Assembly (NCBI GenBank): GCA_026394055.1
Contig: JAPKYZ010000051.1
Span: 16,356-80,355 of the forward strand
Length of the DNA: 64,000 nt
From: Acidobacteriota bacterium
GTDB lineage: Bacteria; Acidobacteriota; Terriglobia; Bryobacterales; Bryobacteraceae
Direction: 5' to 3'
Positions 11,444 through 50,757 of this stretch are shown one piece after another. Position numbers and translations under genes: made by a program. The notes beneath the pieces are model-generated. The model did no database searches, was not told where the DNA came from, and worked only from the letters and a program-made list of their open reading frames with translations. Position 1 is the first letter of the stretch, and the number at the start of each line of letters is the position of its first letter.

Positions 11444-11827
11444 GGAGCCCGCCGGACGGGCAGCCGCTGAGGCGCAAGCCTTGGAGGAAAGTCCGGTCTC
11501 CATCGGGCGGCGTGCCGGCTAACGGCCGGGGGAGCGTTCTCAAAGGACGTTTTACGGACTAGTGCCACAGAAAATGTACCGCCCAGGTGCCTTCGGGTAT
11601 TTGGGTAAGGGTGAAAAGGTGCGGTAAGAGCGCACCGCGGACCCGGCAACGGGTCTGGCAGGGAAAACCCCACGCGGAGCAAGACCAAATAGGGGAGGAG
11701 CGGCGGCCCGTCGCGTTTCACTTCCGGGTAGGTTGCTAGAGCCGGACAGTAATGTCCGGTCGAGATGAATGGCTGCTGCTCGCCCGCAAGGCGAGTACAG
11801 AAACCGGCTTACAGGCCGGCGGGCTCC
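11444..11827 (+). ncRNA. rnpB: RNase P RNA (bacterial type A), rnpB
   Basis: Universally conserved RNase P blocks are present: 'GGAGGAAAGTCCGG', 'GTGCCACAGAAAA', 'GGTAAGGGTGAAAAGGTGCGGTAAGAGCGCACC', 'CAAATAGGGGAGG', 'GGGTAGGTTGCTAGAGCC', 'AGATGAATGGCTGC', 'ACAGAAACCGGCTTA'. P1 pairing: ggagcccgccggac / gg/ccggcgggctcc. Confidence 0.8.
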
Positions 11828-12308: not shown

Positions 12309-12499
12309 TGTGTATTCTCCTGAGAGTGATTTCGCTGCTTTTGTCAGGTCCCCCGTATTCAAGAGCACTCAATATTAAGCAACGTTAATATTATGAGTAT
12401 ACTGAACCTTTACGGCAAGGAAAGTTTTGGTTGATCAGCGCAGAGGAAGGCCAGAACCTGATCAACCTTCAGATTCCCGGACCGCGATACCATAAGGTT

Positions 12500-13111
12500 A
12501 TGGCGACCATGGCGCGGCCGATCGATGCGACCATCACGATGGTCCGCCCATCGCCCTACCTGTCCGACTCGGCTTTTCTCAAGCTGTGCGACCGCTGGCC
12601 GGACTACCGGCTGGAGTACGACGCTGCTGAACAGGAGGTGGTGATGGCTCCACCCACTGAGCCCGAGACCGGCGAACGCAACAGCGAGATCACCGCTCAA
12701 CTTCACTACTGGAACCGGACCCATCGCCGGGGAAGAGTGCTGGATTCCAGCTCCGGCACGCGGCTACCCAACGGCTCCATCCGCGCCGCGGACGCCTCCT
12801 GGATCGCGCGCGATCGCTTTGACCGCGCTATGGCTAAACGGGGCGATGATGCCTACCCGGTGCTCTGCCCTGATTTTGTGATTGAGCTACGTTCACCGTC
12901 TGACCGGCTGCCGCCGCTGAAGCGCAAGATGGAGGAATGGATCGACAACGGCGCTTTGCTGGCCTGGCTGGTGGACCCGATCGACCAGACCCTCACCATC
13001 TACCGGCCGGGCGCCGTGCCCGAGTGCCTTGCGGCGCCATCGTCGGTAGCGGGAGAAGGTCCGGTGGAAGGCTTTGTGCTCGACCTGACCTCGATCTGGC
13101 CTGCTAGCTGA
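12500..13111 (+). CDS. Uma2-family (DUF820) putative restriction-endonuclease-like protein
   Basis: 'PDFVIELRSPSD' PD-(D/E)xK motif typical of Uma2. Start at ATG 12500 (AAGG SD); the ORF extends to 12431. Confidence 0.6.
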   Translation: MATMARPIDATITMVRPSPYLSDSAFLKLCDRWPDYRLEYDAAEQEVVMAPPTEPETGERNSEITAQLHYWNRTHRRGRVLDSSSGTRLPNGSIRAADASWIARDRFDRAMAKRGDDAYPVLCPDFVIELRSPSDRLPPLKRKMEEWIDNGALLAWLVDPIDQTLTIYRPGAVPECLAAPSSVAGEGPVEGFVLDLTSIWPAS

Positions 13112-16283: not shown

Positions 16284-17390
16284 TTAAGGAGCGGCCGAAG
16301 GTTTAGGTTGATTCTGCGTGTCCGCCGTAGCCGGGGTGGCGGCCAGAGGGTTGGCTCGCTTGGCGGCCCGGGACTTGGGCCGTGGAGCGGCGGGGTCAGG
16401 CGTTGCCGGCGGTTTGGCGGCCGCGGGCTTGGTGGTTGCCGGAGTAGCCTCGACCGGCTGGCTCCCGGCCGGTGGAGCCGGGGCAGCCAGAGATTGCGTC
16501 TTCGGTGCCACGGGCTCGGTCTTGCCCGCCGCACCTTTGGCGGGTGTGGCTTTGTCGATCAGCGGCTCGACCTTGTGCTCGTCCGCCGGCCCCTTGCCCG
16601 CGGTGGCTTGCGGTTCTGCCCCCAGGCCGTTGCGATTCAGAATAATGATGTCCACGCGCCGGTTGCGGGCCCGGCCTTCCGCCGTATCGTTGGGTACCAG
16701 CGCGATGGTGTCCGCATATCCGGCGATCGCCACTTTGTTCTTCGGTACGTTGAACCGCGTGGTCAGCAGCTCCATCATCGCGATGGCGCGGGCGGCCGAG
16801 AGCTCCCAGTTGGACTTGAAGCGGGGCGTGCGGATGGGGGTGGAATCGGTGTGCCCTTCCAGACGCACCGGGTTGGGCAGAGCATTGATGGTGGCGGCCA
16901 ACTTTTGCACCATGGGGAAAGCCGTGTCGCTGATCGCGTCGTCTCCAGTGGCAAACAGCGCCGCTTCCCGCATGCTCACCATCAGCCCGCGAGGTGTCAG
17001 CTGCACCTGCAGTTTGCCATCTCGAATCTCGTCGTCCATCTGGCGGGTCAACGACTGCAAGGACGGCAGCAGTTCCGACAAACCATCCGCCACCCCGTTG
17101 CCCTTCACCTTCTGGTTCCCCAACCCTTTGGCGTTCACATCGCGCGAGCGGCCGAGAAAGCCTTCCAGGTAGACCGGCAGCACGCCGCCTTCCAGCGCCC
17201 CTTTCACCGACTCCGACACGCGCGACACCCGCTCCCGATCCACCTGCGAGTTGGCGAACATCACCACAAAGAAGGCGAACAGCAGCGTAATGAAGTCGGC
17301 ATAGGAGACCAGCCACCGCTCGTGGTGGGCGGCACCGTCCGGGGCGCGGCGGCGGCGGCCGGAACCGCGGCTGTCAGACGAGCGGGCCAC
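16284..17390 (-). CDS. motB: MotB-like stator protein (OmpA/MotB family) with long Pro/Ala-rich C-terminal tail
   Basis: TM helix 'WLVSYADFITLLFAFFVVMF'. OmpA-like peptidoglycan-binding motif ('NRRVDIIIL'). Start probably GTG 17390, overlapping the motA stop; the ORF extends to 17447. Confidence 0.7.
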   Translation of the reverse strand: MARSSDSRGSGRRRRAPDGAAHHERWLVSYADFITLLFAFFVVMFANSQVDRERVSRVSESVKGALEGGVLPVYLEGFLGRSRDVNAKGLGNQKVKGNGVADGLSELLPSLQSLTRQMDDEIRDGKLQVQLTPRGLMVSMREAALFATGDDAISDTAFPMVQKLAATINALPNPVRLEGHTDSTPIRTPRFKSNWELSAARAIAMMELLTTRFNVPKNKVAIAGYADTIALVPNDTAEGRARNRRVDIIILNRNGLGAEPQATAGKGPADEHKVEPLIDKATPAKGAAGKTEPVAPKTQSLAAPAPPAGSQPVEATPATTKPAAAKPPATPDPAAPRPKSRAAKRANPLAATPATADTQNQPKPSAAP

Positions 17391-17394
17391 GGCG

Positions 17395-18204
17395 TTAGGC
17401 TGCCTCGCGCCGGGCGGCTTTGGCCTCAGCTGGCCGGGAAACCGCACGGACGCTAATGAAAGCTTCCAGCTTCTGCCGGATCAGCTTGGGGTTCAGGCCT
17501 TCCACCAGGCCGCAGATGCCTTCGAGAATCAGGACGCAGCGGTCGGTCTCCTGCCGCATGCGGGCCTTGATCTTGGAAGCTGCCGGCAGCAGAACCACGT
17601 TGGCCAACGCCACACCGTACACGGTGGCCACAAACGCGGTGGCGATGCCGTGCCCCACCTGCTCCGTGTCGGCCAGCCGTTTCATTACTTGGATCAGACC
17701 CAGCACGGCCCCGATGATCCCGATGGTGGGCGAGTAGCCCCCGGCGGACTCAAACACTTGAGCATCCGCTTCCGCCCGGGCTTCCGCCATGTCAATTTCC
17801 AGCTCCATCATCTTGCGCAGTTCCTGCAGATCGCAGCCATCAACGGCCAGCGTCAGCGCCTTGCGCATAAAGGGGTCCGGAATCCGGTTGATGTCAGAAT
17901 CGAGCGAGACCAGGCCGCTGCGGCGGGCCTTGGTGGCAAACGTGATGATCTCGTCAATCGCCACCGCGGGGTTGCTGACCGGCTCCATCAGCACGTGCCA
18001 CAAACGGCGCAGGGCCGACTTGAGCGTGGCCCAGGGCGTCGCCACCATCACCGCCCCCGCCGTTCCACCCAGGACAATCAGAGCGGCCGTCTTTTGGAGG
18101 ATGTCCTGCAGGACGCCACCTTCCAGCACCAGTCCGCCCAGGATGCCTGCCGCCGCCAGCCCCAGGCCGCCCACGGTCGACAGATCAATACGCGCTTTGG
18201 CCAC
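17395..18204 (-). CDS. motA: MotA/PomA-family proton-channel stator protein
   Basis: 269 aa, four TM segments, MotA/TolQ/ExbB signature region 'AFVATVYGVALANVVLLPAASKI'. Confidence 0.75.
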   Translation of the reverse strand: MAKARIDLSTVGGLGLAAAGILGGLVLEGGVLQDILQKTAALIVLGGTAGAVMVATPWATLKSALRRLWHVLMEPVSNPAVAIDEIITFATKARRSGLVSLDSDINRIPDPFMRKALTLAVDGCDLQELRKMMELEIDMAEARAEADAQVFESAGGYSPTIGIIGAVLGLIQVMKRLADTEQVGHGIATAFVATVYGVALANVVLLPAASKIKARMRQETDRCVLILEGICGLVEGLNPKLIRQKLEAFISVRAVSRPAEAKAARREAA

Positions 18205-18476
18205 TACTCACCCCCTGGTGTGGCGGCTACGTCACGCGCGATCAGACGCGTCCCAGCCGAGGTTCCCGGATTATCGTTTACGCCCTCAGGCCAGGGCGTG
18301 GCTATACGTCGACGATAACTGACAATCTTGTCGATTATCTGGTCCGGTTGCTCTAGTACCATCACTTTTTGACCATTGGCCAGCGAGATGACGGTATCCG
18401 GAGTGGTCTCAATCAGCTCAATCAAGTCTGAGTTCAAGACGATCTCAGAATGATTGATGCGCGTGAGATGGATCAT
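18204..18476 (-). CDS. flbD: flagellar FlbD-family protein
   Basis: 'MIHLTRINHSEIVLNSDLIELIETTPDTVISLANGQKVMVLEQ' matches the FlbD fold. Abuts motA. Confidence 0.6.
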   Translation of the reverse strand: MIHLTRINHSEIVLNSDLIELIETTPDTVISLANGQKVMVLEQPDQIIDKIVSYRRRIATPWPEGVNDNPGTSAGTRLIARDVAATPGGE

Positions 18477-18576
18477 AACCGGGAGGTGAAGTATCAGCGG
18501 GGCGGCAAGACACTTCACTGAAGGTTATCGGCAGAATTCTGTCACTCCGATAGCATCCGGCACCGGGAATCCGGCG

Positions 18577-18996
18577 CTACTTTAGCGAATCCAGAATTGA
18601 TTGAAGTTCTTTCCGAATCTCGCTGATTAAAGGAGGGTTAGGAGCAGCAAACAATGCAGCCTGGGCCGGCTGTACCGGCTTGGCCTCCACCTTCACCTTC
18701 ACCTTGGATTTCTCCGCTTTGCCGCGGCTGGCTGCAAAATGCTGCCGCGCCCCTTGGATGGTGTAGCGCTTCTCATACAGCAGATGCTTGATCTCAAGGA
18801 TATGCTCGACGTCCTTGCGGCGGTACAGCCGGTGGTTGCTGCCGGACTTCTTCGGATCGATGATGGAGAACTCGTTCTCCCAGTAGCGCAGGACCGAAGG
18901 ATTCACCCCCGCCAAGCGGGCTACCTCTCCAATGCGGAAGTAGAGCTTGTCCGGAATCTCAGGCGAGGCGGACGGCACCAGTGTAGGATCAAGCAC
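18577..18996 (-). CDS. MerR-family transcriptional regulator
   Basis: HTH 'YFRIGEVARLAGVNPSVLRYWENEF' typical of MerR/CarA-like regulators. Confidence 0.7.
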   Translation of the reverse strand: MLDPTLVPSASPEIPDKLYFRIGEVARLAGVNPSVLRYWENEFSIIDPKKSGSNHRLYRRKDVEHILEIKHLLYEKRYTIQGARQHFAASRGKAEKSKVKVKVEAKPVQPAQAALFAAPNPPLISEIRKELQSILDSLK

Positions 18997-19066
18997 TAGC
19001 CTAGTTGTACTTCATGCTTCGCTTGAAGTCCAGCAGCCCCCCAGGCAACCGTAAATCAACCGTCTG

Positions 19067-21172
19067 CTATTTGGTGGCCAACCCGCTGCGTTCCAGCAGC
19101 GCTTTCGGGTCCGGGTTGCGGCCCATGAAATCGCGGAACAGCTTCCCGGCCTCCTCGGTGTTGCCCTTTTCGAGCACATTGCGGCGGAACGCGTTGCCCG
19201 CGGTGGGGCTAAACAATCCCTCCTTCTTGAACCGCGTAAACGCATCCGCATCCAGCACTTCCGCCCACTTGTAGCTGTAGTACCCGGCGGCATACCCGCC
19301 GGCGAAAACGTGCGAGAAGCTGGTGACCATGGAGAAGTTCTCAGGCAGCGGAGCGGGGGTGTAGCGTTGCATCACCTTTCGCGCGTAAGTCACTGGATCG
19401 CCTTGAGAATCATCGCCGCGGTATTCCGTGTGGAACAGAATATCCGTCATGCCCAGCCCCAGCTGCCGCATCATCGCCGAACCACCCCGGAAGGTCCGGG
19501 CCTTCTTCAAGGCGTCAAACATGGAAGCCGGAACCGGCTTGCCGTTCTCATAGTGCTTGGCAAACAGGTCCATCACCGGCCGCTCCCAGGTGAAGTTCTC
19601 CATGATCTGGCTGGGCAGCTCCACAAAGTCCCAGGCCACCGAGGTTCCTCCTAGCGACTTGATGGGGGAGCGGCTGAGCGACATGTGGAGCAGGTGGCCG
19701 AATTCGTGGAACAGCGTCTCCACTTCGTAATGGTTCAACAACGCCGGCTTACCTGGTTCGGCCGTGGCGATATTGGCGGCGATCAGGCCGATGTGCGGTT
19801 CAAACTTGCCACCCGCCAGCGGGCCCCCCATCACTAGCGGGCTCATCCAGGCCCCGGCGCGCTTGTTGTCGCGAGGGTAGAAGTCGGCGTAGAAGCTGGC
19901 GAGCAGGGTGCCGTCCTGGTCCCGGATTTCGTAGAACTTTACTTCCGGCGCCCACACGGCCGGATTTTCCACCGATTTGATCGAAATTCCGTATAAACGA
20001 TTGACCAGCTGGAACATCCCGTCCACCACTTTGTCTGCCGGGAAGTAGGGACGGAGCGCCTCCTCGTCAAAATCGTAGAGCTTCTTGCGCAGCTTCTCGG
20101 CGTAGTACGAGATATCCCAGGGTTCTAGGTCCGGGGCGTTGGGACCTTCCAGCGATTTGCGGAAGGCGGCCAGCTCAGAATTCTCTTTCTCGTATGCTGG
20201 CTTAGATTTAGCTTCAAGATCTTCAAGAAACGCTTTAACCGAGGCGCCGGACTTCGCCATACGCTCTTCGGTCTGCCGGTCAGCAAAATTGGCGTACCCG
20301 AGCAGCTGCGCTTCTTCGGAACGCAGGGCCAGCATCTTGCGAATCAGCGGGCTGTTGTCGAACTTGCCGGTGGAGGCCAAAGTGTTCGACGCCAGCCACA
20401 TCTGCTTGCGGATGGAACCGTCATCCAGGAACTGCAGCACCGGCTGGTAGCTGGGGGCGGCCAGCGTAAGCCGCCAGCCTTCCTTGCCCTTGGCCTTGGC
20501 GCTGGCTAGCGCCGCCTTGCGCGCCGATTCCGGCAGACCGGCCAACTGTTTCTCGTCGGTCACCATCAGCTCGAACGCGATGCGGGCATCAAGCGCATTC
20601 TGGCTGAACTGGTTGGCGACGGCGGACTGCTCTTCATTGATCTCCTGGAGGCGCTTGCGCTTGGCGTCATCAAGGTATGCGCCGCCGCGGCGGAAGTCGT
20701 TCAAGGTCTTGCTCAGGTATCGGGCCCGGACCCCGGTCAGCGCCTTGGCTTCAGCGGTCTCCGCGTACTCTTTCACCGCCCGCGCCAGCCGGACGTCCAG
20801 TTGGACGCTGGAGCTATACGCCGAAATCTTGGGCAGGACGGCGTTGTAGGCTTTGCGATGTTCGGGCGTAGTGGCGACGCCTTCCAGCAGCGAGATCACG
20901 GAGAAGGCGTGGGACAACCGCTCGCCCATGTTCTCCAGCCGCTGCATGGTGTTGTCCCAGGTCCGGGGGCCCGTGGAGGTGGCCAGCGTCTGGCGCTGCT
21001 GCTCTGCCTCGGCCAGCAGGGCGTCCATGGCCGGGACGATGTGCTCCGGCTTCACCTGGTCGAACGGCAGCCGGTAGGTGCTGCCGGCCGGGCGCCGCTC
21101 CGGAATCTCCAGCAACGGGTTCTCTGCCGCCATCGCAGCACATGCCGCCAAACTTAGCCAAAGAGATCGCAT
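19067..21172 (-). CDS. dcp: M3-family metallopeptidase (peptidyl-dipeptidase Dcp / oligopeptidase A-like), secreted
   Basis: 701 aa. HExxH zinc site 'HEFGHLLH'. M3 fold. Signal peptide. Confidence 0.85.
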   Translation of the reverse strand: MRSLWLSLAACAAMAAENPLLEIPERRPAGSTYRLPFDQVKPEHIVPAMDALLAEAEQQRQTLATSTGPRTWDNTMQRLENMGERLSHAFSVISLLEGVATTPEHRKAYNAVLPKISAYSSSVQLDVRLARAVKEYAETAEAKALTGVRARYLSKTLNDFRRGGAYLDDAKRKRLQEINEEQSAVANQFSQNALDARIAFELMVTDEKQLAGLPESARKAALASAKAKGKEGWRLTLAAPSYQPVLQFLDDGSIRKQMWLASNTLASTGKFDNSPLIRKMLALRSEEAQLLGYANFADRQTEERMAKSGASVKAFLEDLEAKSKPAYEKENSELAAFRKSLEGPNAPDLEPWDISYYAEKLRKKLYDFDEEALRPYFPADKVVDGMFQLVNRLYGISIKSVENPAVWAPEVKFYEIRDQDGTLLASFYADFYPRDNKRAGAWMSPLVMGGPLAGGKFEPHIGLIAANIATAEPGKPALLNHYEVETLFHEFGHLLHMSLSRSPIKSLGGTSVAWDFVELPSQIMENFTWERPVMDLFAKHYENGKPVPASMFDALKKARTFRGGSAMMRQLGLGMTDILFHTEYRGDDSQGDPVTYARKVMQRYTPAPLPENFSMVTSFSHVFAGGYAAGYYSYKWAEVLDADAFTRFKKEGLFSPTAGNAFRRNVLEKGNTEEAGKLFRDFMGRNPDPKALLERSGLATK

Positions 21173-21198
21173 TCCCCATTGGATACCATGACTAGACG

Positions 21199-21909
21199 AT
21201 GACCGTCATCGCTGGAATTCATTCTGTCCGCGAAGCGCTGAAAAACCGCCGCGAGTTGGAGCGCGTCGTCGTGGCGCGCGGCATGGGCGGCCAAAAGGTC
21301 CAGGAGATCGTCGACCTGGCGCGGGAGGCTCGCGTCCAACTGCGGTTTGAAAGCCGGGAGCAGCTGGACCGTCTGGCGCAAGGCTCCGCCCACCAGGGCG
21401 TGGTGGCCATCGCCGGCGCGTTCCGCTACTGGTCACTCAACGAACTGCCAGAGGACGCCCGGCTGGTGGTGGTGCTCGATGGCGTCGAAGACCCGCACAA
21501 CCTAGGCGCCATCGCTCGAACGGCCGAATGCGCCGGTGCGTCCGCCATCATCATCCCGGAACGCCGCTCCGCCGGAGTCACCGACACCGTCATGAAGGCC
21601 GCGGCCGGTGCCCTGGAGCATCTGCCGGTGGTCCGGGTCGTGAACATCAACCGGGCGCTGGAAGAGTTAAGGGAGCGCAATTTCTGGCGCTACGGCCTGG
21701 ACGAGCGCGGCACCGACACCTACGACACCGTCCAGTTTGCGACCCCCACCGCCATCGTGATGGGCGGCGAGGGCCACGGACTGCACGAACAAGTCAAGAA
21801 ACACTGCGACGTCCTGGTCAGCATCCCCATGGCGGGACACATCCCATCGCTGAATGTCAGCGTGGCGGCGGGGGTGGTGCTGTTTGAATGGAAGCGAAGG
21901 ATACACTAA
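21199..21909 (+). CDS. rlmB: 23S rRNA (guanosine-2'-O)-methyltransferase RlmB (SpoU/TrmH family)
   Basis: SpoU motifs 'LDGVEDPHNLGAIARTAECAGA', 'IVMGGEGHGL', 'SIPMAGHIPSLNVSVAAGVVLFE'. Confidence 0.8.
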   Translation: MTVIAGIHSVREALKNRRELERVVVARGMGGQKVQEIVDLAREARVQLRFESREQLDRLAQGSAHQGVVAIAGAFRYWSLNELPEDARLVVVLDGVEDPHNLGAIARTAECAGASAIIIPERRSAGVTDTVMKAAAGALEHLPVVRVVNINRALEELRERNFWRYGLDERGTDTYDTVQFATPTAIVMGGEGHGLHEQVKKHCDVLVSIPMAGHIPSLNVSVAAGVVLFEWKRRIH

Positions 21910-23539
21910 AGCCGATGGCCAGAAATCTCCTCTTGGATACGAGCACGGTCAATATTGGTTCGGTTTTTGCCAATGGCAACTTGTACCGGGTTCCGGAATT
22001 CCAACGAGACTATTCCTGGCAGGAAGAGAACTGGGAAGATCTTTGGAATGATTTGACTGAAGTGCACGAGTCCGGCAGCACGCACTATTTTGGCGCGATT
22101 GTGCTCCAGTCGACAGCGGCTGACCGGTTCACCGTGATCGATGGACAACAGCGGTTGGCGACCGTCAGTCTGCTTGCGCTTGCGGTACTAGATCGCATTC
22201 GCACATTGGTAGATCGAGGCGTCAATGCGGATGAGAATAAGTTGCGGTATGAACTTCTGTTCAGCCAGTTCATCGGTTCAAGAGATCCGGCGTCGTTGCG
22301 AGCCTCGAGTAAGTTAACGCTCAACAAGACGGACGACGGGTTTTACCAGCACTTTATGGTGCAGTTCCGCCAGCCGATCAATCCGCGCCGGCTCGAGCCA
22401 TCTGAGCGGCGCATGTGGGAGGCGTTCAAGTATTTCCAGCAAAAGCTGGTAGCCCAGTTCGGGGAGCAACCGGATGGGGAGCATCTGGCCGACTTCCTGG
22501 CCACGACAGTTGCACGCCGGCTGATGTTCATTCAGATTCTGGTCGAAGACGAGCTAAGCGCCTACACGGTCTTTGAGACCTTGAATGCCCGTGGTACCGC
22601 GCTTACGGCCTCAGACCTGCTGAAGAACTACCTATTTTCACTGGCCGCGGAGAGCCGCTTGGACCTGGAACACGTCCAACATGAATGGAGACAGATTGCG
22701 GAGCTGGTGCCCGCAACCGATTTGAGCGGCTTCCTTCGGCATTTCCTCAACTCCTCGCAGAGCTATGTCCGGAGCGAGCGTCTTTTTAAGGAGATCAAAG
22801 CCTCGGTCAGCAACCGCCAACAGGTGTTCGCCTTCCTGGAACGGCTGCATAAGGCGGCTGATCTTTACGCCGCCTTGGATGATCCGGAGGATCAGTTCTG
22901 GCTGGACCGTCCGGACGCTGTGCCTCACATTCGCGCGCTGAAGCTTTTTGGGGTGACACAGTATCGCCCTTTGGCGCTGGCATGGAATGAGCGGCATGCG
23001 GCGCAGGATCTCGAGCGCATCCTAAGGATCTGTGAGATCGTTTCTTTCCGATTCAACGTGATTGCCCGGCGCAACACCCAGGAACTCGAGCGGGCTTATA
23101 ACCAAGCGGCGATTGAAGTCTCAGCGGGCCGTGCTACCCGCCCCCGAGATGTCTTCGAACTGCTCAAACCGGTCTACGTCTCCGATGAAGAGTTCAGCCG
23201 ATCTTTCGGCTTCTACCCATTGGGCCTGCGTCCGAAGAAGATCCAGAGCTATACCCTATCTCGTCTGGAAGCCCACCTTCGAGGGGACAAATTTGACGCT
23301 GATTTGATTGGGGCAACCATTGAACACATTCTGCCCGAGAACCCCTCCCAGGAATGGCTAAGAATCGCTTGGCGGGAGGCAAAGGACCGGCCATCAAGCA
23401 AGAGATCTATGCCAGTAGTGCGTTTGAGATGACCAAACGGCTGGACGTTATGGAGTGGAGTGTGGAGGCTATCCACGAACGCGAAGAGCGCATGGCGGAG
23501 TGGGCCGTCGCCGTATGGCGCCTCGATTTCGGCCGGTAG
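21888..23539 (+). pseudogene. GmrSD-like type IV restriction endonuclease (DUF262 + DUF1524), disrupted by frameshift/deletion
   Basis: N-terminal DUF262 motifs ('RVPEFQRDYSWQ', 'IDGQQRL'). C-terminal DUF1524 His-Me finger start 'TIEHILPENPSQEW'. The reading frame then terminates at 23432 after an out-of-family stretch. The remainder of the DUF1524 domain ('...KQEIYASSAFEMTK...EW') continues in the +2 frame (23354..23539). The expected 'GNLTLL' segment between them is missing. Confidence 0.6.
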
Positions 23540-23542
23540 ACA

Positions 23543-24289
23543 TTAATCCAACAGCGCGGAGGTGTGCTTGACCAACCGCTCCAGAGCCGCGGCCGCCGCC
23601 CGAACGCTGGCGGTCTTCTTCGACGTCCCTTCGCCGGTGGCGGCGACGGTCTTGCCAACCCGCACTTCTACGGTAAAGAGCTTTTCGTGGTCTGGCCCGG
23701 TTTCCTGCAGCACTTGATAGCGGGGCAGTGGGAGCTTCAGCGACATGGCGGCTTGCTGGAGGGCGCTCTTGGGGTTGGAGGCGCTGGGGTCTTCGCCGGG
23801 TTCTAGGGCGTCGGCGGAGAGAATGCGTTGGAGGACGAAGCTGCGGGCGGCGTCGATGCCTCCATCCAGAAAGACGGCGGCGATCACGGCTTCCAGGGCG
23901 TCGGCGAGGACGGTCTTTTTCTCGCGGCCACCGGCCCGGTCCTCACCCCGGCCCAGGATTAGATAACCACCCAAGTTTAGAGCGCGGGCGGCGCGGTAGA
24001 GGAACGCGGAATTGACCACGCGCGACTTGATCACCGTCAGCTGGCCTTCCGGTTGATCGGGGTGGCGGCGGAATAGTTCTTCCGCCACCAGAAATCCCAA
24101 AACCGAATCGCCCAGAAACTCCAGCTTCTCGTTGTCCGGCCGGACCGAGATCAGCTCCTGGCCATCCGGCCCCACTGACCGGGTAGGCTCCGACGCCACG
24201 GAGCTATGGGTCAGCGCGCGCCGGAGCAGATCCAGGTCGCGAAAGCGGTAGCCGATCGACGCTTCGAGCGCGCTCAGCTGGTCATCCAT
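23543..24289 (-). CDS. rnc: ribonuclease III
   Basis: RNase III signature 'NEKLEFLGDSVLG', C-terminal dsRBD. Confidence 0.9.
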   Translation of the reverse strand: MDDQLSALEASIGYRFRDLDLLRRALTHSSVASEPTRSVGPDGQELISVRPDNEKLEFLGDSVLGFLVAEELFRRHPDQPEGQLTVIKSRVVNSAFLYRAARALNLGGYLILGRGEDRAGGREKKTVLADALEAVIAAVFLDGGIDAARSFVLQRILSADALEPGEDPSASNPKSALQQAAMSLKLPLPRYQVLQETGPDHEKLFTVEVRVGKTVAATGEGTSKKTASVRAAAAALERLVKHTSALLD

Positions 24290-24318
24290 CGGCTACTCAA
24301 ACACTACTTCTTCGGCCA

Positions 24319-25089
24319 CTACTTCTTCTGCGATTTCAGCTGCGCGGCCTTCAGCTTCTGCTGGGCCGCCACCTGCTTGATCGACGGCGGCAGATCCGGC
24401 ATGGCGTTCAGCTGGTCCACCATCGCAATGGCGTTGTCGGGCTGGCCGGCATCGTTGTAGGTGACCGCCAGGCGAACCATGGTGGAAGGATCCTTCTGGG
24501 GCTGCGCTTCAATGGCCGCCTTCAGTTCCGGAATAGCCACGTCGTACTTCTTGCGGACCATCGCCGACAGACCCAGCACTTCGTGACCCTGGGATTCGAA
24601 ATCCTTCTTCGCCATCGCCCACTGCTCGTCGGTCATGGCGGGGTTGGGCTTGGCCGCGGTCGCCACCAGGGCCAACGCATCCTTGGCCAGCTTTTCCGCC
24701 TTGCCCAGTTTTTCTTCCTTGTCGAAATCGAACTCGCGGGTGCGAGCGGCCAAGGCCTGGCCCATGATCAGCATCGCGCCGTAGCCCTTGGGGTCGGCCT
24801 CAAGAGCGCGTTCTCCGTAAAGAATGATCTTCTCCGTGTCATTTTTCTGCTGCGCCGAGACGGTGGCGACGTAGAGCGCGATGCCCTTGAACTGGGTATC
24901 CGCAAATTTGGTCAACAGCGCTTCAACGGCAGCAATACGGGCATCCGGGTCCTGCGCGCTGAACACGGCGTTGATCGCTTCGGCTTCCTTTTGCGACTTC
25001 GGCTTGGCTTGCTTGGTGTCCGCCGTCTGGGCGAAGGCAGCCGTCATCAGGGTGACGGTCAGAGCCAGAAAAATGGCCAACTTTCTCAT
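24319..25089 (-). CDS. TPR-repeat secreted protein
   Basis: Signal peptide. Tetratricopeptide-like helical repeats. 4-bp overlap with the upstream gene. Confidence 0.5.
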   Translation of the reverse strand: MRKLAIFLALTVTLMTAAFAQTADTKQAKPKSQKEAEAINAVFSAQDPDARIAAVEALLTKFADTQFKGIALYVATVSAQQKNDTEKIILYGERALEADPKGYGAMLIMGQALAARTREFDFDKEEKLGKAEKLAKDALALVATAAKPNPAMTDEQWAMAKKDFESQGHEVLGLSAMVRKKYDVAIPELKAAIEAQPQKDPSTMVRLAVTYNDAGQPDNAIAMVDQLNAMPDLPPSIKQVAAQQKLKAAQLKSQKK

Positions 25090-26552
25090 GGATTCATCCT
25101 CTTCTTCAAATCTTGGGCCGCTTTGGTGGCGGAGTCCCGTGCCGCGCGTGTCGCGCCTTCCACTTTCAACGCATCGTCGAAATGACGGGCGGCTTCCGCG
25201 GGTTCACCACCCAACTCGAGCAGCCGGCCAAGATAAACGTGCGCCCACGCCCGGATCGCTGCCTCGGGTTCCAGGTCCAGCGTCTGTTGAAACAGCTTCA
25301 CCGCCAGTTCCGGGTTCTTTTCGAGCGCCGCAATCCGCGCTAATCCATAATACGCTCTCGACTGCAGCACTCTCTCTTTGGTCTGTTCGGCGGCCTCCAA
25401 GAACTTCGCCCGTGCGTCAGCCAACTTGCGCGCCGCATAGAGATCTTCCGCATCTTCGAGCAGCTTCGGCACACCGGTCAGCTCCGGCTTCTTCTCCGGT
25501 TGCGCCACCTTGACGGTCTTCACCACGGCCTGCGTGGCGAACTGCACGTTGGCGAGCCGCTTGTCTTCCTTCCTCAGATCGATGTTGTTGATCATGTCGG
25601 GATAGTGGAAGCGCATCGCCTGCTCCTGCTTTTCATAGAGCACCAGCGCTTCGGCAAAGTAGGGCGCCAGAATGTAGCCTTCGGCCAGCGCCTGCGCCAC
25701 CATCGCGTCACGCTTAGCGGCCGGTGCCAGGCGAACTTCGACGGCGCGCGTGATGCACTTGGTGGTGAGCAGCAGAAAGTCGTTCTTGTAGGCATCCGGC
25801 AGCAGCGGCGCGGCTTGGGCCAAGTCGATCAGCGGGCGCTTTTTCTCGATCTTGTCGGCATGCAAGGTGGCCAGCGGGTCCACCAGAAAGCCGATGTAGG
25901 AGTGGCGGACTTCTTCGGCGTGCGTGTCTTGAGAAGACGTCAGGATGACGTAGAAATCGTCGCCATAGCTGCGCGCCTGGATGTTGTTGGGCGCGGCCAT
26001 CAGGTCGACGTAGACGAAAAACTTACGCGGACCGGAGCCGGTGCCAGGCACACGCAAATAGCCGGTCGCTTGCTGCAGCGCGTTGGTGATCGGGTCATGG
26101 AAACGTTCCAGCGCCTGCTCATGCATGGGCTTCACCTGTTTCCACAATTCATCCAGCTGCGCCTGCTGGTGGAAGCGCGTCATCAGCGCGCCAAAACCTT
26201 CTAGCGACAACGCATCCGGCGGAATCTCTTCCAGCTTGAAGCGCCACTTGTACTGGTCCGTGCCGTCAACGGCCAGGGCGAAGGAGATGTACTGGCTCAA
26301 GTCGCCGGTCCAGTCCTTTTTCCGATGGGCGGCGAAGAACTTCTTCAGCTCGGCGACCGTGGACAGGTTCTGCTTCGCCACCGCCTCCCGCACCGCTTTG
26401 CGCAACGGGTGGTTGTTGGGCGAATCGGCATCCGCGTCATATCCGGCGGCGTTGATCGCCACCATGACGTTGAAAAGAGTCTGATTAGCGTCCAGTTGGG
26501 CCTGTTGGGCCGCTAAAGGCAGGACGGCGAGTAACGCGAGGGCATACTTCAC
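25086..26552 (-). CDS. hypothetical secreted protein with C-terminal TPR-like region
   Basis: 488-aa ORF with signal peptide MKYALALLAVLPLAAQQ. No confident family assignment. Confidence 0.5.
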   Translation of the reverse strand: MKYALALLAVLPLAAQQAQLDANQTLFNVMVAINAAGYDADADSPNNHPLRKAVREAVAKQNLSTVAELKKFFAAHRKKDWTGDLSQYISFALAVDGTDQYKWRFKLEEIPPDALSLEGFGALMTRFHQQAQLDELWKQVKPMHEQALERFHDPITNALQQATGYLRVPGTGSGPRKFFVYVDLMAAPNNIQARSYGDDFYVILTSSQDTHAEEVRHSYIGFLVDPLATLHADKIEKKRPLIDLAQAAPLLPDAYKNDFLLLTTKCITRAVEVRLAPAAKRDAMVAQALAEGYILAPYFAEALVLYEKQEQAMRFHYPDMINNIDLRKEDKRLANVQFATQAVVKTVKVAQPEKKPELTGVPKLLEDAEDLYAARKLADARAKFLEAAEQTKERVLQSRAYYGLARIAALEKNPELAVKLFQQTLDLEPEAAIRAWAHVYLGRLLELGGEPAEAARHFDDALKVEGATRAARDSATKAAQDLKKRMNP

Positions 26553-32920: not shown

Positions 32921-33196
32921 ATGGCCTCTCACGACCAGCGGTCAAGCGGGCAGACCAACCCGGGTTCACTATCTTTGACGCCTGAGCCGGCTGTCGTTGC
33001 GACTGCGCCGGAACTGGTTGACCTCTACCGGACCGCTTTTCGGCTTTACGGGACTTCCGCCCTCTGGAATCGGCGTGAGTTTACCGACCCCGCTCCGCAA
33101 GATGTCCTGGCCATCACCCAAGCGCTCAGGACGCACGGCGGGATGGACGGCCGGCGGCTAGCTGAAAAGATTGAACGCATCTGCCGTGCCACTTAG
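32921..33196 (+). CDS. hypothetical small protein, putative partner of the downstream nucleotidyltransferase
   Basis: 91-aa ORF overlapping the next gene by 26 bp. No recognisable family. Start uncertain. Confidence 0.35.
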   Translation: MASHDQRSSGQTNPGSLSLTPEPAVVATAPELVDLYRTAFRLYGTSALWNRREFTDPAPQDVLAITQALRTHGGMDGRRLAEKIERICRAT

Positions 33197-34001
33197 TCAG
33201 TTTCAGTCGCGAGTGCTGGGGATATTGGCGGCGGGCCGGACGCCGGAAAGCTTCATCGCCGGCGGTATCGCCATCAACCGTGAGGGACCGCGCTATTCGC
33301 GGGCTATCGATATCTTCCAGGATTCCGAGGAGGTCTTGGCGGCGGCAGCGGAAGCTGACCAGCGCCTGCTGACAGATGCCGGAATGCGCGTCAACTGGCG
33401 AAGCAACCGCACGGGCCACCGGTCGGCGATCGTTTCAGCGGATACAGACTCGATGCGCCTCGAGTGGGTGCATGATAGCGCCTTCCGATTCTTTCCCGCC
33501 CAGCCTGATGCGCAGTTCGGCTATGTGCTCCACCCTGTCGATTTGGCGGCCAACAAGGTCTCGGCAGCGGCCGACCGGCGTGAGGCTCGGGACATTGTTG
33601 ACCTAGTGACCATTCACGAAAACATCCTGCCTCTTGGGGCGGCGATCTGCGCCGCGGTTGGCCGGTTTCCTGGTCAATCGCCCGAGGAGATGTTGGCCGA
33701 GATCCGCCGCCACGCGCGCCTGTCGGCCGAAGAGATCGAGAGCCTGGCCATGGATGGCCCCCTGGACGTGAAGGCCTTCACGGCGCGGGTCCGCGCGATG
33801 CTCGACCACGCGGATGTGTTCATCCGTCATCTACCGAGCGAAGCGGTTGGGGTGGTCTTCTTAAGGGCCGGGAGGTGGGAGCAACCGGATCTCGACCGGC
33901 TGGACGAGTATGATCGCCGCCCCGGAAGCCGGGGTGGTATCTGGCCTTCATCGAGCGAAATCAACCGCGCCATGCTCGGCCGGTATTCCAGCGAACCCTA
34001 A
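33171..34001 (+). CDS. nucleotidyltransferase, AbiEii/DUF1814-like (putative type IV TA / abortive-infection toxin)
   Basis: Pol-beta-type NTase motif 'FIAGGIAINREGPRYSRAIDIF' (GG...RxSxDID), as in AbiEii-family proteins. About 276 aa. Confidence 0.5.
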   Translation: MNASAVPLSQFQSRVLGILAAGRTPESFIAGGIAINREGPRYSRAIDIFQDSEEVLAAAAEADQRLLTDAGMRVNWRSNRTGHRSAIVSADTDSMRLEWVHDSAFRFFPAQPDAQFGYVLHPVDLAANKVSAAADRREARDIVDLVTIHENILPLGAAICAAVGRFPGQSPEEMLAEIRRHARLSAEEIESLAMDGPLDVKAFTARVRAMLDHADVFIRHLPSEAVGVVFLRAGRWEQPDLDRLDEYDRRPGSRGGIWPSSSEINRAMLGRYSSEP

Positions 34002-36693: not shown

Positions 36694-37926
36694 ATGGAAC
36701 GGAAAAAGAAGGTTGGCCCACCCCGCATTGAGACGCTACGCGTCAAAAACTATCGCTCATTAAAGGACATCGAATTCAGGGACCTCACGCCCTTCACTGT
36801 GCTGCTTGGCCCGAATGGCAGTGGGAAGTCGACGACTTTCGATGTGTTGAATTTTCTGTCCGAGTGCTTTCGCTTCGGGCTTCGTCATGCCTGGGATCGC
36901 CGGGGACGCTCTAGAGAGTTAAAGACGAGAGGTCAATCTGGCCCGATTCTCATCGAACTTAAGTACCGCGAGCGCCCGGAAGCACCAATCATCACATACC
37001 ACCTAGCGATTGATGAGGGCGAACGGGGCGGACCAGTAGTCGCCGAAGAATGGCTGCAATGGCGGCGAGGCAGTAAGGGGCAACCATTCCGGTTCTTGGA
37101 TTATCGCGCCGGCAAAGGACGAGCCGTCAGCGGTGAGATGCCCGATGACCAGGATCAACGGGACGACGTACCGCTGAAGTCAGCGGACTTGATCGCGGTC
37201 AACGCCCTCGGCCAGTTTGAGAATCATCCGCGCGTTGCTGCTTTGAGAGAATTCATCACCGATTGGTACGTATCGTATCTATCGATAGAAGATACACGCG
37301 GGCAGCCCGAGGCGGGTCCACAGGACCGCCTGAGCAAGAGCGGCGATAACCTCGCAAACGTAATTCAGTACCTTAGGGAACGCTATCCGAAAGAGTTGGA
37401 GGCTATTTTTGAGATCCTCCGACGCCGTATCCCGAGGCTCGAAAGCGTTATTGCAGTACCTACTGACGATGGACGGCTGCTGTTGCAGATCAAGGACGCT
37501 CCCTTTGATCGGCCGATCCTCTCTCGTTTTGCATCTGACGGGACGTTGAAAATGTTGGCCTACCTAGTTGTTTTGCATGATCCTGAACCACCGCAATTCG
37601 TTGGGATCGAGGAACCGGAGAACTTTCTTCATCCGCGACTCCTACCGGGGCTGAGCGAAGAATGTAGGAGCGCGACCGAGCATTCACAATTATTGGTCAC
37701 GACACATTCACCATTTTTCTTGAATAGCGCCAAGCCTAACGAGGTTCGAATTCTCTATCGAAACGAACATGGTTTCACCGAAACGAGACGCGCGGACGAG
37801 GTTCCGGGTATCACTCAGTTTGTGGATGCGGGAGCCACTATGGGCCACCTTTGGCTGGAAGGCAGATTGGGAGCCGGGGATCCGCTGGTGAACTCGGGGG
37901 TTCCGTTGGAGGGACGCCGCCGATGA
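36694..37926 (+). CDS. ABC-type (AAA_21/OLD-like) ATPase, putative anti-phage AbiLi-like component
   Basis: Walker A 'GPNGSGKST'. Walker B/D-loop '[13 protein letters not shown]'. H-loop '[10 protein letters not shown]'. N-terminal '[12 protein letters not shown]' typical of OLD/Gabija-class ABC ATPases. Confidence 0.75.
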
Positions 37927-38534
37927 AGGCCAGCCATCTGCATGTCATTGTTGAGGACCAGTCCACGGAAGCCGCGCTCCGTGTATTGCTGCCCAAGATT
38001 CTTCGACAAGACCTTACGTTTGAGATATTTCCGCACCAATGTAAGCAAGATCTGTTGAAACATCTCCCGAACCGCTTTCGGGGCTACAAGCAATGGCTGC
38101 CGGACGACTGGCGGATTATTGTGCTCTGCGATCTTGACAATGACGACTGCAAACAACTCAAGGATCGGCTCGAATCGTTTGCCATGCAGGCGAGGTTAAT
38201 GACCAAGCGATCTAGCAGTCGCGGGAGCTATCAAGTTGTCACGCGGCTTGCTATCGAAGAATTGGAAGCCTGGTTTTTTGGCGATTGGAATGCGGTTTGT
38301 GCCGCATACCCCAAAGTGGATCCCAACCTTGGAGCAAAACAGGGTTACCGCGATTCCGATTCCATTGCCGGCGGTACTTGGGAAGCGCTTGAGAGAGCGC
38401 TAAAGAATGGAGGATACTTCCGAACGGGACTTAGAAAGATCGAAGCCGCGCGGGCCATCTCTGACCAAATGGATCCATTGCGCAATAAGTCCCAGAGCTT
38501 CGATGCCTTTCGGAAGGCCGTCGGGGATCTATAG
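37923..38534 (+). CDS. DUF4276-like Toprim-domain protein (putative nuclease partner of the ATPase)
   Basis: ATGA overlap with the ATPase stop. Toprim catalytic Glu '[10 protein letters not shown]' and DxD motif '[12 protein letters not shown]'. Confidence 0.65.
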
Positions 38535-44578: not shown

Positions 44579-45031
44579 ATGGACCAAAAGACGCTCCAGG
44601 TCGTAGCTGATCTTCTGCTCGCGGCCGTCCCCACCACGCTTCTGGTGGTGATCCTCCACTTTTATTTGAAAGCGGTGCTCTTCCGGCCGCTGGAAAAGAC
44701 GCTGGCTGACCGGCATGCCGCCACGCAAGGCGCGGTGGATGCGGCCAATCAAGCGTTAAAGCGGGCCGACCAGAAGGCAGCCGAATATGATGCCGCTTTG
44801 CGCCAAGCGCGAGGCGAGATTCTGCGTGAGCAGGACGCCCAGCGGCGACGGCTGGCTGACGATCAAGCGGCCGCACTGACGGCGGCGAAGGATCAGGCCG
44901 GTAAGTTGATTGCGGAAGCTCGCTTGCAGCTGGACGCCGAACTGGCGGCAGCCAAAGAGAACTTGACCGCTGAAGCCGAGCGTTTGGCCGACGTCGTGAC
45001 GGCTTCGGTTCTGCATGGGAGCCGCAATTGA
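44579..45031 (+). CDS. atpF2: F-type ATP synthase subunit b'
   Basis: Single N-terminal TM plus long charged coiled coil. Precedes and overlaps (4 bp) the second b-type gene. Confidence 0.6.
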   Translation: MDQKTLQVVADLLLAAVPTTLLVVILHFYLKAVLFRPLEKTLADRHAATQGAVDAANQALKRADQKAAEYDAALRQARGEILREQDAQRRRLADDQAAALTAAKDQAGKLIAEARLQLDAELAAAKENLTAEAERLADVVTASVLHGSRN

Positions 45032-45663: not shown

Positions 45664-45664
45664 T

Positions 45665-46216: not shown

Positions 46217-46292
46217 GCTGGCGCGCCGGTTTAGGCGCTGTTTGCGCCAAGTAAAGATTTTCGGATTTAGGCTTCTAGAAGGTTAACGGGGC

Positions 46293-47822
<1,530 letters not shown>

Positions 47823-47846
47823 GCAAGGAACAACCGGCTTCAGCTC

Positions 47847-50680: not shown

Positions 50681-50757
50681 CGGGCCGTAGCGCAGCCTGG
50701 CTAGCGCGCTTGCTTGGGGTGCAAGAGGTCGCGAGTTCAAATCTCGCCGGCCCGACC
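50681..50757 (+). tRNA. tRNA-Pro (anticodon GGG)
   Basis: Cloverleaf: acceptor CGGGCCG/CGGCCCG, D stem GCGC/GCGC, anticodon stem CTTGC/GCAAG with loop TTGGGGT, T stem GCGAG/CTCGC with TTCAAAT loop. 3' CCA encoded. Confidence 0.85.

What the first reader, a model, noticed from the sequence alone, without database searches (positions are those of the whole stretch)
21888..23539. Frameshifted GmrSD-like (DUF262 + DUF1524) type IV restriction gene inserted between rlmB and rnc
Seen directly:
- The N-terminal half has the DUF262/ParB-like motifs (FQRDYSW, DGQQR).
- The C-terminal half begins the DUF1524 His-Me finger (EHILPENPSQEW) but stops 30 codons later.
- The conserved continuation (...KQEIYASSAFEMTK...) is encoded in another frame (23354-23539), and the expected GNLTLL stretch is absent.
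- The gene overlaps the rlmB 3' end by ~20 bp and ends 3 bp from the rnc stop. It looks AT-richer than the neighbours.

Inference: a horizontally acquired modification-dependent restriction enzyme that has been inactivated by a small deletion/frameshift. Alternatively a sequencing error, or a programmed frameshift.
Basis: partly seen in the sequence, partly recalled or inferred. Interest (0 to 1): 0.6.

Follow-up and report, generated by a model that had tools for sequence, protein, structure and literature searches.

The report
Broken copy of GmrSD-like defence gene
This is an ordinary anti-phage nuclease gene of a known family (GmrSD-like, HEC-06 type) whose copy in this assembly lacks 73 bases that encode the core of its DNA-cutting site, while an intact copy with otherwise identical flanks exists in another dataset.

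Summary
A DUF262 + DUF1524 (GmrSD-like) gene lies between rlmB and rnc and is split over two frames (21915-23357, then 23360-23539). The lesion is one 73-nt deletion. It removes 25 codons (GSLFS...RAGNLTLLER[A/G]) and shifts the frame. In a model of the intact sister protein these codons hold the second beta strand and the invariant Gly-Asn of the His-Me nuclease finger.

Nothing else is decayed: outside the deletion, 93 of the other 95 near-invariant family positions are kept.

- The real start is ATG 21915, 5 nt after the rlmB stop, so there is no overlap.
- The gene is not a fresh insertion. A 91%-identical intact orthologue (565 aa, Lake Mendota) has the same rlmB > gene >< rnc layout. More distant relatives keep it directly after rlmB. 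Its low GC is a family trait.
- An independent assembly (SRR20698650) is 100% identical over 7.3 kb of flanks but carries the missing ...GNLTLLERA segment.

So the lesion is either a very recent deletion that coexists with an intact copy (favoured) or an error in this MAG. The family (PADLOC HEC-06) is a validated single-gene defence. Interest is low.

The parts
21915..23357 (+). Frame-A part of the GmrSD-like (HEC-06-type) gene, codons 1-481. It holds the DUF262/ParB-like NTPase domain (FQRDYSW 21999-22019; DGQQR 22140-22154), the helical linker, and the first strand of the DUF1524 His-Me finger (E470-H471 in EHILPENPSQEW, 23322-23357).
   Evidence: Pfam GmrSD_N 6e-37 and GmrSD_C profile 3-71. 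PADLOC HEC-06 profile 1-493 of 569, E 9e-173. tblastn of eight homologues aligns their residue 1 at 21915 (or 21930) and runs to 23357 in most. 91.1% identical, without gaps, to P0121 residues 1-481.
23356..23359 (+). Deletion junction, ...GAATGG|CTAAG... 73 nt (25 codons minus 2 retained nt, 'CT') are missing here. The GG is a 2-nt microhomology shared with the end of the deleted segment (...GAGCGGG|CTAAG in the intact allele).
   Evidence: Homologues stop in frame A at 23357 and resume in frame B at 23360, skipping 23-25 residues. P0121 has 25 extra residues, GSLFSPEQHRASVFRAGNLTLLERG. Logan contig L093 is identical down to 23356 and then reads ...FSTDDHRASIFRAGNLTLLERA.
23358..23432 (+). 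Out-of-frame read-through tail of the truncated product (LRIAWREAKDRPSSKRSMPVVRLR plus TGA). It is not homologous to the family.
   Evidence: Translations. The same bases read in frame B match the family strongly.
23360..23539 (+). Frame-B remnant: the last 59 codons plus stop of the ancestral gene. It holds KNR (second Asn of the E/D-H-N-N motif, 23360-23368), KQEIYASSAFEMTK and the W...R...W helix. It is not translated from the upstream start as the gene is encoded here.
   Evidence: Pfam GmrSD_C profile 90-138. PADLOC HEC-06 profile 511-567, E 7e-10. tblastn E down to 2e-17. 86.4% identical to the last 59 residues of P0121.
21199..21909 (+). rlmB-like SpoU rRNA 2'-O-methyltransferase, directly upstream (5-nt spacer AGCCG). 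No promoter-like site lies between the two genes, so co-transcription is likely (inference).
   Evidence: Pfam SpoU_methylase 2e-46 and SpoU_sub_bind. Promoter scan. The same adjacency occurs in L085, L087/L088 and the P0121 contig.
23543..24289 (-). rnc (RNase III), convergent with the gene, 3-nt spacer (ACA). Collinearity with the more distant relatives (L085, L087/88) ends here, but the close relative P0121 has the same neighbour.
   Evidence: Pfam Ribonuclease_3 and dsrm..
16561..21172 (-). MotB-MotA-FlbD-MerR-M3 peptidase block. Together with rlmB and the GmrSD-like gene it is collinear with relatives L085, L087 and L088.
   Evidence: tblastx/tblastn identities: M3 peptidase 66%, MotA 69-71%, MerR 73-80%, RlmB 71-81%. 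Gene tables.

Best explanation
The locus is a single-gene anti-phage defence gene of the GmrSD-like DUF262-DUF1524 family, PADLOC subtype HEC-06.

How the intact protein works (inferred from family experiments): a ParB-like NTPase domain (DGQQR) controls a C-terminal His-Me (HNH-type) nuclease that nicks or cuts invading DNA.

History of the gene (shown): it has sat directly downstream of rlmB since before this lineage split from relatives whose housekeeping proteins are 66-81% identical. A close relative (91% identical protein) has the same rlmB > gene >< rnc layout with an intact 565-aa gene.

The window's copy (shown): it carries one 73-nt deletion with 2-nt (GG) microhomology. The deletion removes 25 codons and shifts the frame. 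In the model of the intact sister protein, those codons form a short helix, the invariant Gly-Asn and the whole second beta strand of the beta-beta-alpha-metal finger.

Consequence: translation from ATG 21915 gives a 505-aa product that has the NTPase domain and linker but no foldable nuclease core. It cannot cleave DNA (inferred).

Age of the lesion: very recent. Nothing else in the gene has decayed, and an assembly from another read set is 100% identical over 7.3 kb of flanks yet still carries the deleted segment.

Most likely reading: a loss-of-function allele that coexists with an intact allele in one population.
For: Family and domains:
- Pfam GmrSD_N 6e-37, with split GmrSD_C.
- PADLOC HEC-06 E 9e-173 for ORF1 and 7e-10 for ORF2. 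Profile positions 494-510 are unmatched.
- 5036 homologues. The top 119 are 539-581 aa and carry both domains.

The lesion:
- tblastn maps the break to 23357/23360. The alignment shows loss of ...GNLTLLE....
- P0121 aligns without gaps except for 25 residues.
- AlphaFold2 model of sister P0002 (pLDDT 91): beta1 461-465 (E464, H465), helix 479-485, G490-N491, beta2 492-496, alpha 497-503 (N500). The deletion covers about residues 476-498.

Functional importance of the motifs:
- Machnicka 2015 (PMC4619093) defines (E/D)HxxP, L(G/A)NLxLLxxxN and the catalytic E/D-H-N-N motif.
- HEC-06 mutants E471A, H472A, Q79A and R80A lose defence (bioRxiv 10.1101/2024.01.29.577857).
- DndI N541A loses nicking and defence (PMC11662687).

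Recency:
- Of 99 columns that are at least 95% conserved, 93 are kept, 2 substituted and 4 deleted. Intact homologues average 1.04 mismatches, maximum 8.
- The window's branch is not longer than that of P0002.

Intact allele: L093 is 100% identical over 4934 nt, then reads FSTDDHRASIFRAGNLTLLERA|KNR. L092 is 100% identical over 2402 nt.

Vertical history.
Against: - The deleted allele is seen only in this one MAG contig. Neither the 505-aa nor the 514-aa product is on record in any other assembly. No reads could be inspected, so an assembly error cannot be excluded.
- The intact allele is documented for only 62 of the 73 nt. The Logan contig ends inside the segment, so the left junction of the intact allele was never seen.
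- P0005, also rlmB-adjacent, joins the window+P0002 clade in only 17/100 bootstraps. Allele replacement at this site, rather than pure vertical descent, is therefore possible.
- The target specificity of this subfamily is unknown.
Confidence: 0.65

Rival explanations
1. Assembly or consensus artefact. The organism has only the intact 565-codon gene, and the 73-nt gap arose during assembly, merging or polishing of the MAG contig.
For: - An independent assembly of SRR20698650, 100% identical over 7.3 kb of flanks, carries the missing segment.
- The deleted allele is found in no other assembly.
- Both Logan contigs break inside this gene (at window 22005, and 62 nt into the missing segment). The region is therefore hard to assemble.
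- Nothing else in the gene is decayed.
Against: - De Bruijn assemblers only emit paths whose k-mers occur in reads. The junction shares just 2 nt of homology, so no repeat could cause a collapse.
- 73 nt is unlike typical homopolymer or indel errors.
- The Logan contig end lies 11 nt from the expected left junction, so it is not explained by the junction itself (inference).
Confidence: 0.27
2. The truncated 505-aa protein (DUF262 NTPase plus helical linker, no nuclease) is kept for a function of its own. It could be a nuclease-dead DNA or modification sensor, or a dominant-negative partner of intact dimers.
For: - The N-terminal 481 codons are fully intact, with all near-invariant motifs.
- BrxU, SspE and DndI act as dimers (papers read), so a truncated subunit could interact with intact ones.
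Against: - None of the 119 best homologues is a natural truncated form. All are 539-581 aa with both domains.
- The downstream frame-B remnant is equally undecayed, which fits recency rather than selection for truncation.
- There is no evidence of spread of this allele.
Confidence: 0.05
3. A programmed -1 ribosomal frameshift or transcriptional slippage joins the two frames into one functional protein.
For: The two frames overlap (frame B is open from about 23320, and frame A stops at 23432), and the shift needed is -1.
Against: - There is no X_XXY_YYZ heptamer or homopolymer run in 23300-23432.
- Any fused product would still lack the 25 residues holding the invariant G-N and the beta2 strand.
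- All homologues, including the 91% orthologue, are single-frame.
Confidence: 0.01
4. Recent horizontal insertion of a foreign defence gene between adjacent rlmB and rnc.
For: - The gene has lower GC and GC3 than its flanks.
- None of 80 GTDB-representative relatives (RlmB 56-69% identical) has the gene next to rlmB.
- Five of seven near homologues sit in unrelated contexts as solitary genes, so the family does move on long time scales.
Against: - The layout is the same in a 91% orthologue.
- The gene lies in a collinear block directly after rlmB in lineages with 66-81% identical housekeeping proteins, and the sister gene P0002 is at that same site.
- Low GC3 is shared by all family members regardless of context.
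- No repeats, tRNA or mobility genes lie at the borders.
- In the 17 of those 80 relatives that have rnc within 7 kb of rlmB, rnc lies upstream on the same strand and is never convergent. So 'rlmB-rnc adjacent' is not the ancestral empty site.
Confidence: 0.03

Closest known systems
HEC-06 (Hma-embedded candidate 06), a GmrSD-like single-gene anti-phage defence (Payne et al., bioRxiv 10.1101/2024.01.29.577857; PADLOC-DB models PDLC04154-04157)
   Same: - Near full-length match to the PDLC04154 profile (1-493 and 511-567 of 569; E 9e-173 and 7e-10).
- The same motifs at almost the same residue numbers: DGQQR with Q79/R80, and EH at 470/471 against E471/H472 in the tested protein.
- A solitary gene of about 565 aa.
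   Different: - The window copy lacks 25 residues of the His-Me finger and is frameshifted.
- It is not embedded in an Hma, BREX or RM system. It lies between housekeeping genes.
- The host is an acidobacterial (Bryobacterales-like) lineage.
- Activity was not tested.
DndI (PDB 9JFL) and SspE (6JIV/7DRS): phosphorothioate-sensing DUF262-DUF1524 NTPase/nickases
   Same: - Best structural matches of the intact sister model: DndI TM 0.74/0.70, E 2e-19 over the full length; SspE E 3e-15.
- Sequence hit to DndI 2e-19.
- The same DGQQR NTPase and HNH nickase logic.
   Different: - Only 15-18% identity.
- No dnd or ssp modification genes in seven homologue contexts, nor within about 15 kb either side in the window.
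- The residue aligned to the PT-sensing Tyr25 of DndI is Phe in the window protein and in P0002.
GmrSD / BrxU type IV (modification-dependent) restriction enzymes
   Same: - Pfam GmrSD_N and GmrSD_C architecture.
- The motif set of Machnicka 2015: DGQQR, (E/D)HxxP, LGNLxLL...N, W..R..W.
   Different: - HEC-06 shares only 23.7% identity over 11% alignment coverage with BrxU and lacks BrxU's RLFDS motif.
- Dependence on modified DNA is not shown for this subfamily.
- The window copy has lost the LGNLxLL motif.

Membership tests
GmrSD-like DUF262-DUF1524 family (Pfam PF03235 + PF07510) | N-terminal DUF262/ParB-like domain with QR and (I/V)DGQQR motifs | tested here: met
   PF03235 E 6e-37, 128 bits against a cutoff of 33.2. 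FQRDYSW at 21999-22019 and VIDGQQR with DGQQR at 22140-22154.
GmrSD-like DUF262-DUF1524 family (Pfam PF03235 + PF07510) | Complete C-terminal DUF1524 His-Me finger: (E/D)HxxP, L(G/A)NLxLL...N, catalytic E/D-H-N-N in one reading frame | tested here: not met
   - EH is present (E470, H471), as is the second Asn (KNR, other frame).
- The LGNLxLL strand with the first Asn is deleted, and the frame is shifted.
- Each PF07510 half scores below the cutoff: 21.9 and 19.7 bits against 23.
- The feature is met in the intact orthologue P0121 and, in part, in the Logan allele.
GmrSD-like DUF262-DUF1524 family (Pfam PF03235 + PF07510) | Large alpha-helical linker between the two domains | tested here: met
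   The AlphaFold2 model of sister P0002 (pLDDT 91) is helical from about 206 to 450. The window is collinear over this region.
Type IV restriction (modification-dependent cleavage) | Cleaves only modified (for example glc-hmC or hmC) DNA | not testable with these tools
   No biochemical data. The text read for HEC-06 does not state a modification dependence.
HEC-06 (PADLOC) | Significant full-length match to a HEC-06 profile | tested here: met
   PDLC04154: E 9e-173 (profile 1-493) plus E 7e-10 (profile 511-567). Positions 494-510 are missing.
HEC-06 (PADLOC) | Confers phage resistance that needs DGQQR and EH residues | not testable with these tools
   Shown for the tested homologue only. With its nuclease core deleted, the window allele is predicted to be inactive.
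DndI / SspE phosphorothioate-coupled defence | Genetic linkage to dndBCDE or sspABCD modification genes | tested here: not met
   - No such genes in the contexts of P0002, P0003, P0004, P0005, P0007, P0008, P0016 or P0121.
- None among the window genes from 8 to 50 kb that were scanned with Pfam.
DndI / SspE phosphorothioate-coupled defence | Overall fold similarity | tested here: met
   Foldseek: 9jfl_A TM 0.74/0.70, E 2e-19; 7drs_A E 3e-15. This is for the intact sister model, not the window allele.

The most novel reading that the evidence does not exclude
The intact and 73-nt-deleted alleles coexist in one natural acidobacterial population with otherwise identical flanks. That would be a snapshot of ongoing loss of a chromosomal, rlmB-co-transcribed defence nuclease. 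The cause could be autoimmunity cost or relaxed phage pressure. The nuclease-dead DUF262 protein might persist as a dominant-negative or sensor subunit. More broadly, this HEC-06 clade would be a long-term vertically inherited 'core' defence gene in a Bryobacterales-like lineage, not an island-borne mobile gene.
Probability: 0.12. Interest if true: 0.4.

Novelty: new member of a known kind. Interest (0 to 1): 0.17.

Why it matters
Mainly as a correction. The locus is a defective, or mis-assembled, allele of a known and validated single-gene defence family, not a new system and not a fresh insertion.

Two points have modest value.
- A defence nuclease can stay at one chromosomal position, tightly coupled to a housekeeping gene (rlmB), across lineages whose housekeeping proteins have diverged to 66-81% identity. 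Throughout it keeps an atypically low GC3, so low GC alone is a poor sign of recent transfer.
- Intact and deleted alleles occur on identical backgrounds. This gives a concrete, read-checkable case of defence-gene loss in an uncultured soil or freshwater acidobacterium.

For annotation, the deposited 505-aa protein (MCX6592166.1) should be treated as a truncated product or pseudogene.

Tried and rejected
- Border repeats or target-site duplications around 21910-23542: only chance-level short matches. No tRNA or mobility gene nearby.
- Promoter and terminator scan: nothing above shuffled expectation.
- Metagenome scan with the protein: 4 loci, none closer than 45-61% and partial.
- Scan of 80 GTDB relatives for an empty rlmB><rnc site: no such arrangement exists. 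rnc lies upstream of rlmB on the same strand in 17 of them.
- Exact look-ups of the 505-aa and 514-aa products: not on record.
- Protein search with a reconstructed 150-aa C-terminal query, meant to find fragments spanning the junction: nothing returned, not even the window's own protein. It is uninformative.
- Off-frame 'GTNLTLI' at 23284-23304, considered as the displaced GNLTLL strand: rejected. It lies upstream of the EH motif and overlaps frame-A codons that align with the family.
- Weak frame-A similarity after W481 (some tblastn extensions reach 23384/23390): rejected. The same bases in frame B match KNR..AGGK..KQEIY far better.
- Programmed frameshift: no slippery site.
- DndI-like dependence on phosphorothioation: no dnd or ssp genes near any homologue.
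- The first NJ bootstrap script timed out. It was redone.
Full report
**1. What is in the sequence**

The two ORFs exist as described: 21888..23432 (+, 514 aa) and 23354..23539 (+, 61 aa, -1 frame).

- Pfam finds GmrSD_N (PF03235, 6e-37) in ORF1.
- GmrSD_C (PF07510) is split. Profile positions 3-71 fall in ORF1 and 90-138 in ORF2, and each half scores just below the cutoff.
- PADLOC places the protein in HEC-06. Profile 1-493 of 569 matches ORF1 (E 9e-173) and profile 511-567 matches ORF2 (E 7e-10).
- The flanks are an rlmB-like SpoU methyltransferase (21199..21909, +) and rnc (23543..24289, -).
- Motif coordinates were verified: FQRDYSW 21999-22019, DGQQR 22140-22154, EHILPENPSQEW 23322-23357, and KNR 23360-23368 in the other frame.
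- The gene's GC is 0.557 and GC3 0.667. Neighbours have GC3 of about 0.80 and the window mean GC is 0.624.

One correction concerns the start. The deposited protein P0001 (505 aa) starts at ATG 21915, and most of the homologues tested by tblastn align their residue 1 there. That is 5 nt after the rlmB stop, so the supposed 22-nt overlap with rlmB comes from choosing the first ATG.

**2. The lesion**

A database search gave 5036 homologues. The 119 best are 539-581 aa and all carry both Pfam domains. Only the window's own protein is short.

- tblastn of eight homologues aligns them in frame A up to 23357 (their residues about 475-482). They resume in frame B at 23360 (their residues about 499-508).
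- A multiple alignment shows that the skipped block is ...F.....e..vyRLGNltLLE..., which contains the second conserved motif of the nuclease domain.
- The 90%-identity cluster of P0001 has a second member, P0121 (565 aa).
- P0121 aligns to the window without gaps. It is 91.1% identical over the first 481 residues and 86.4% over the last 59.
- The one exception is a block of 25 residues, GSLFSPEQHRASVFRAGNLTLLERG, absent from the window.
- Two nucleotides (CT) of the last deleted codon remain, so the lesion is a 73-nt deletion (3n+1). This explains both the missing motif and the frame change.

To see what the deletion removes, I modelled the intact sister protein P0002 with AlphaFold2 (pLDDT 91). 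Its nuclease core reads:
- beta1 at 461-465, carrying E464 and H465
- a short helix at 479-485
- the invariant G490-N491
- beta2 at 492-496
- an alpha helix at 497-503, carrying N500

The deletion corresponds to about residues 476-498. It removes the helix, the Gly-Asn, the whole second strand and the start of the helix of the beta-beta-alpha-metal finger.

Published work shows that these elements matter:
- Machnicka et al. 2015 define the motifs (E/D)HxxP and L(G/A)NLxLLxxxN and the catalytic E/D-H-N-N set.
- HEC-06 loses defence when E471, H472, Q79 or R80 is mutated.
- DndI N541A loses nicking and defence.

As encoded, translation from 21915 therefore gives a 505-aa product ending in 24 unrelated residues. 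It has no foldable nuclease core (inference).

**3. How old is the lesion**

Of the 99 alignment columns conserved in at least 95% of 119 homologues, the window keeps 93. Two are substituted and four lie in the deletion. Intact homologues average 1.04 mismatches, with a maximum of 8.

The window's branch is not longer than that of its sister P0002. There are no other stops or frameshifts in either part. The gene was under normal constraint until very recently.

**4. An intact allele exists**

Exact look-ups of the window's RlmB and Rnc proteins found two contigs from the Logan assembly of run SRR20698650.

- L092 equals window 19604-22005 at 100%.
- L093 equals window 28289-23356 at 100% (4934 nt, no mismatch) and then diverges.
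- The last 62 nt of L093 read, in frame B, FSTDDHRASIFRAGNLTLLERA, followed by KNRLAGGK... That is the missing segment.
- The junction shares only GG between the two breakpoints.
- The contig ends inside the segment, so the left junction of the intact allele was not seen.
- The deleted allele was found in no other assembly.

Two readings remain.

The first, which I favour (about 0.65), is a real deletion that coexists with an intact allele in one population. Graph assemblers need the junction k-mers to be present in reads, and a 2-nt homology cannot cause a repeat collapse.

The second (about 0.27) is an artefact of the MAG assembly. Only read mapping can decide between them.

**5. Is it a recent insertion between rlmB and rnc? 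No**

- The contig of P0121, from the Lake Mendota time-series coassembly JGI 3300059473, has this order: rlmB 3' end, 4 nt, the intact gene, 3 nt, convergent rnc, then the next gene. That is the window's layout.
- The next nearest homologues, P0002 (58%) and P0005 (54%), lie directly after rlmB in a block MotB-MotA-FlbD-MerR-M3 peptidase-rlmB. This block is collinear with window 16.5-21.9 kb.
- Identities across that block are M3 peptidase 66%, RlmB 71-81% and MerR 73-80%. In those two lineages collinearity ends at the gene's 3' end.
- The window and P0002 are sisters in 100/100 NJ bootstraps. P0005 joins them in only 17/100, so some allele turnover at this site is possible.
- Five other near homologues (P0003, P0004, P0007, P0008, P0016) are solitary genes wedged tightly between unrelated housekeeping genes. 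The family therefore does relocate over long times.
- In all these loci the gene's GC3 (0.65-0.74) is below that of its neighbours (0.71-0.86). Low GC is a family trait, not a sign of recent arrival.
- Among 80 GTDB-representative relatives (RlmB 56-69% identical), none has the gene or the M3 peptidase beside rlmB. In 17 of them rnc lies upstream of rlmB on the same strand and is never convergent.
- No border repeats, tRNA or mobility genes were found.

**6. What it works like, and membership**

Sequence and profile place the gene in the GmrSD-like DUF262-DUF1524 family, HEC-06 subtype.

The intact sister's model is closest to DndI (9JFL, TM 0.74/0.70, E 2e-19) and then to SspE. However, no dnd or ssp genes occur near any homologue, or in the window genes scanned from 8 to 50 kb. 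It is therefore not a phosphorothioate-coupled system by the linkage criterion.

Whether the subfamily needs modified DNA as a target, which is the sense of 'type IV restriction', is not established in the text I read.

The window allele fails the family's defining complete His-Me finger. It is a disabled member.

**7. Rejected alternatives**

- Programmed -1 frameshift. There is no slippery heptamer in 23300-23432, and any fused product would still lack 25 essential residues.
- A retained function for the truncated protein. This is possible but unsupported, because no natural truncated forms occur among the best homologues.

**8. Verdict**

This is a known kind of gene carrying an ordinary loss-of-function lesion, or possibly an assembly error. 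The claims of insertion and of overlap with rlmB were not. Interest is low (0.17).

Noticed in passing
window 36694-38534 (+): An apparently intact two-gene HEC-01-type pair. One gene is an AAA_21/AAA_15 ABC ATPase (36694-37926; PADLOC HEC-01A, E 1e-157). The other is a DUF4276 protein (ORF 37851-38534; HEC-01B, E 2e-84). The pair sits in the lowest-GC stretch of the window (GC 0.54-0.56), between an M14 carboxypeptidase-like gene and cytidylate kinase. HEC-01 gave no protection against the phages tested in the paper that named it.
   Followed up: partly
L085, L086, L087, L089, L090, L091 and window 21915-23539: In every context examined, this HEC-06-clade gene is a solitary gene packed within a few to about 40 nt of housekeeping neighbours, with no mobility genes. 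Its GC3 is lower than that of its neighbours even where its position is conserved. How such genes relocate is unexplained.
   Followed up: partly
L001-L080 versus window 21199-26552: In 17 of 80 Bryobacterales-type relatives the order is 488-aa TPR gene, TPR gene, rnc, then rlmB 1.5-4.9 kb further on, all on one strand. In the window the rnc-TPR-TPR block is inverted and lies downstream of rlmB. The locus therefore sits at a rearrangement boundary relative to those genomes.
   Followed up: partly
L092 and L093 (Logan SRR20698650) versus window 22005 and 23294: Both independent contigs break inside the GmrSD-like gene, although they are 100% identical to the window elsewhere. This suggests low coverage or strain-level variation concentrated in this gene.
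   Followed up: no
window 12431-13111 (+) and 33171-34001 (+): A Uma2-family 'putative restriction endonuclease' gene (Pfam E 1e-30) and an AbiEii-like nucleotidyltransferase toxin gene (E 4e-6). These are further small defence or toxin-type genes scattered among housekeeping genes.
   Followed up: no
window 46275-48560 (-) and 44893-45726 (-): A 761-aa ORF with low GC3 (0.64) and a 277-aa ORF (GC3 0.68), both without any Pfam match at E <= 1e-5. They may be further foreign or lineage-specific genes.
   Followed up: no
window 11448-11827 (+) and 50681-50758 (+): RNase P RNA (bacterial class A, 273 bits) and a single tRNA-Pro (GGG).
   Followed up: no
window 23284-23304 (+, frame +1 relative to the gene): The off-frame peptide GTNLTLI resembles the missing GNLTLL motif. 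It lies upstream of the EH motif and overlaps conserved in-frame codons, so I judged it a coincidence.
   Followed up: yes
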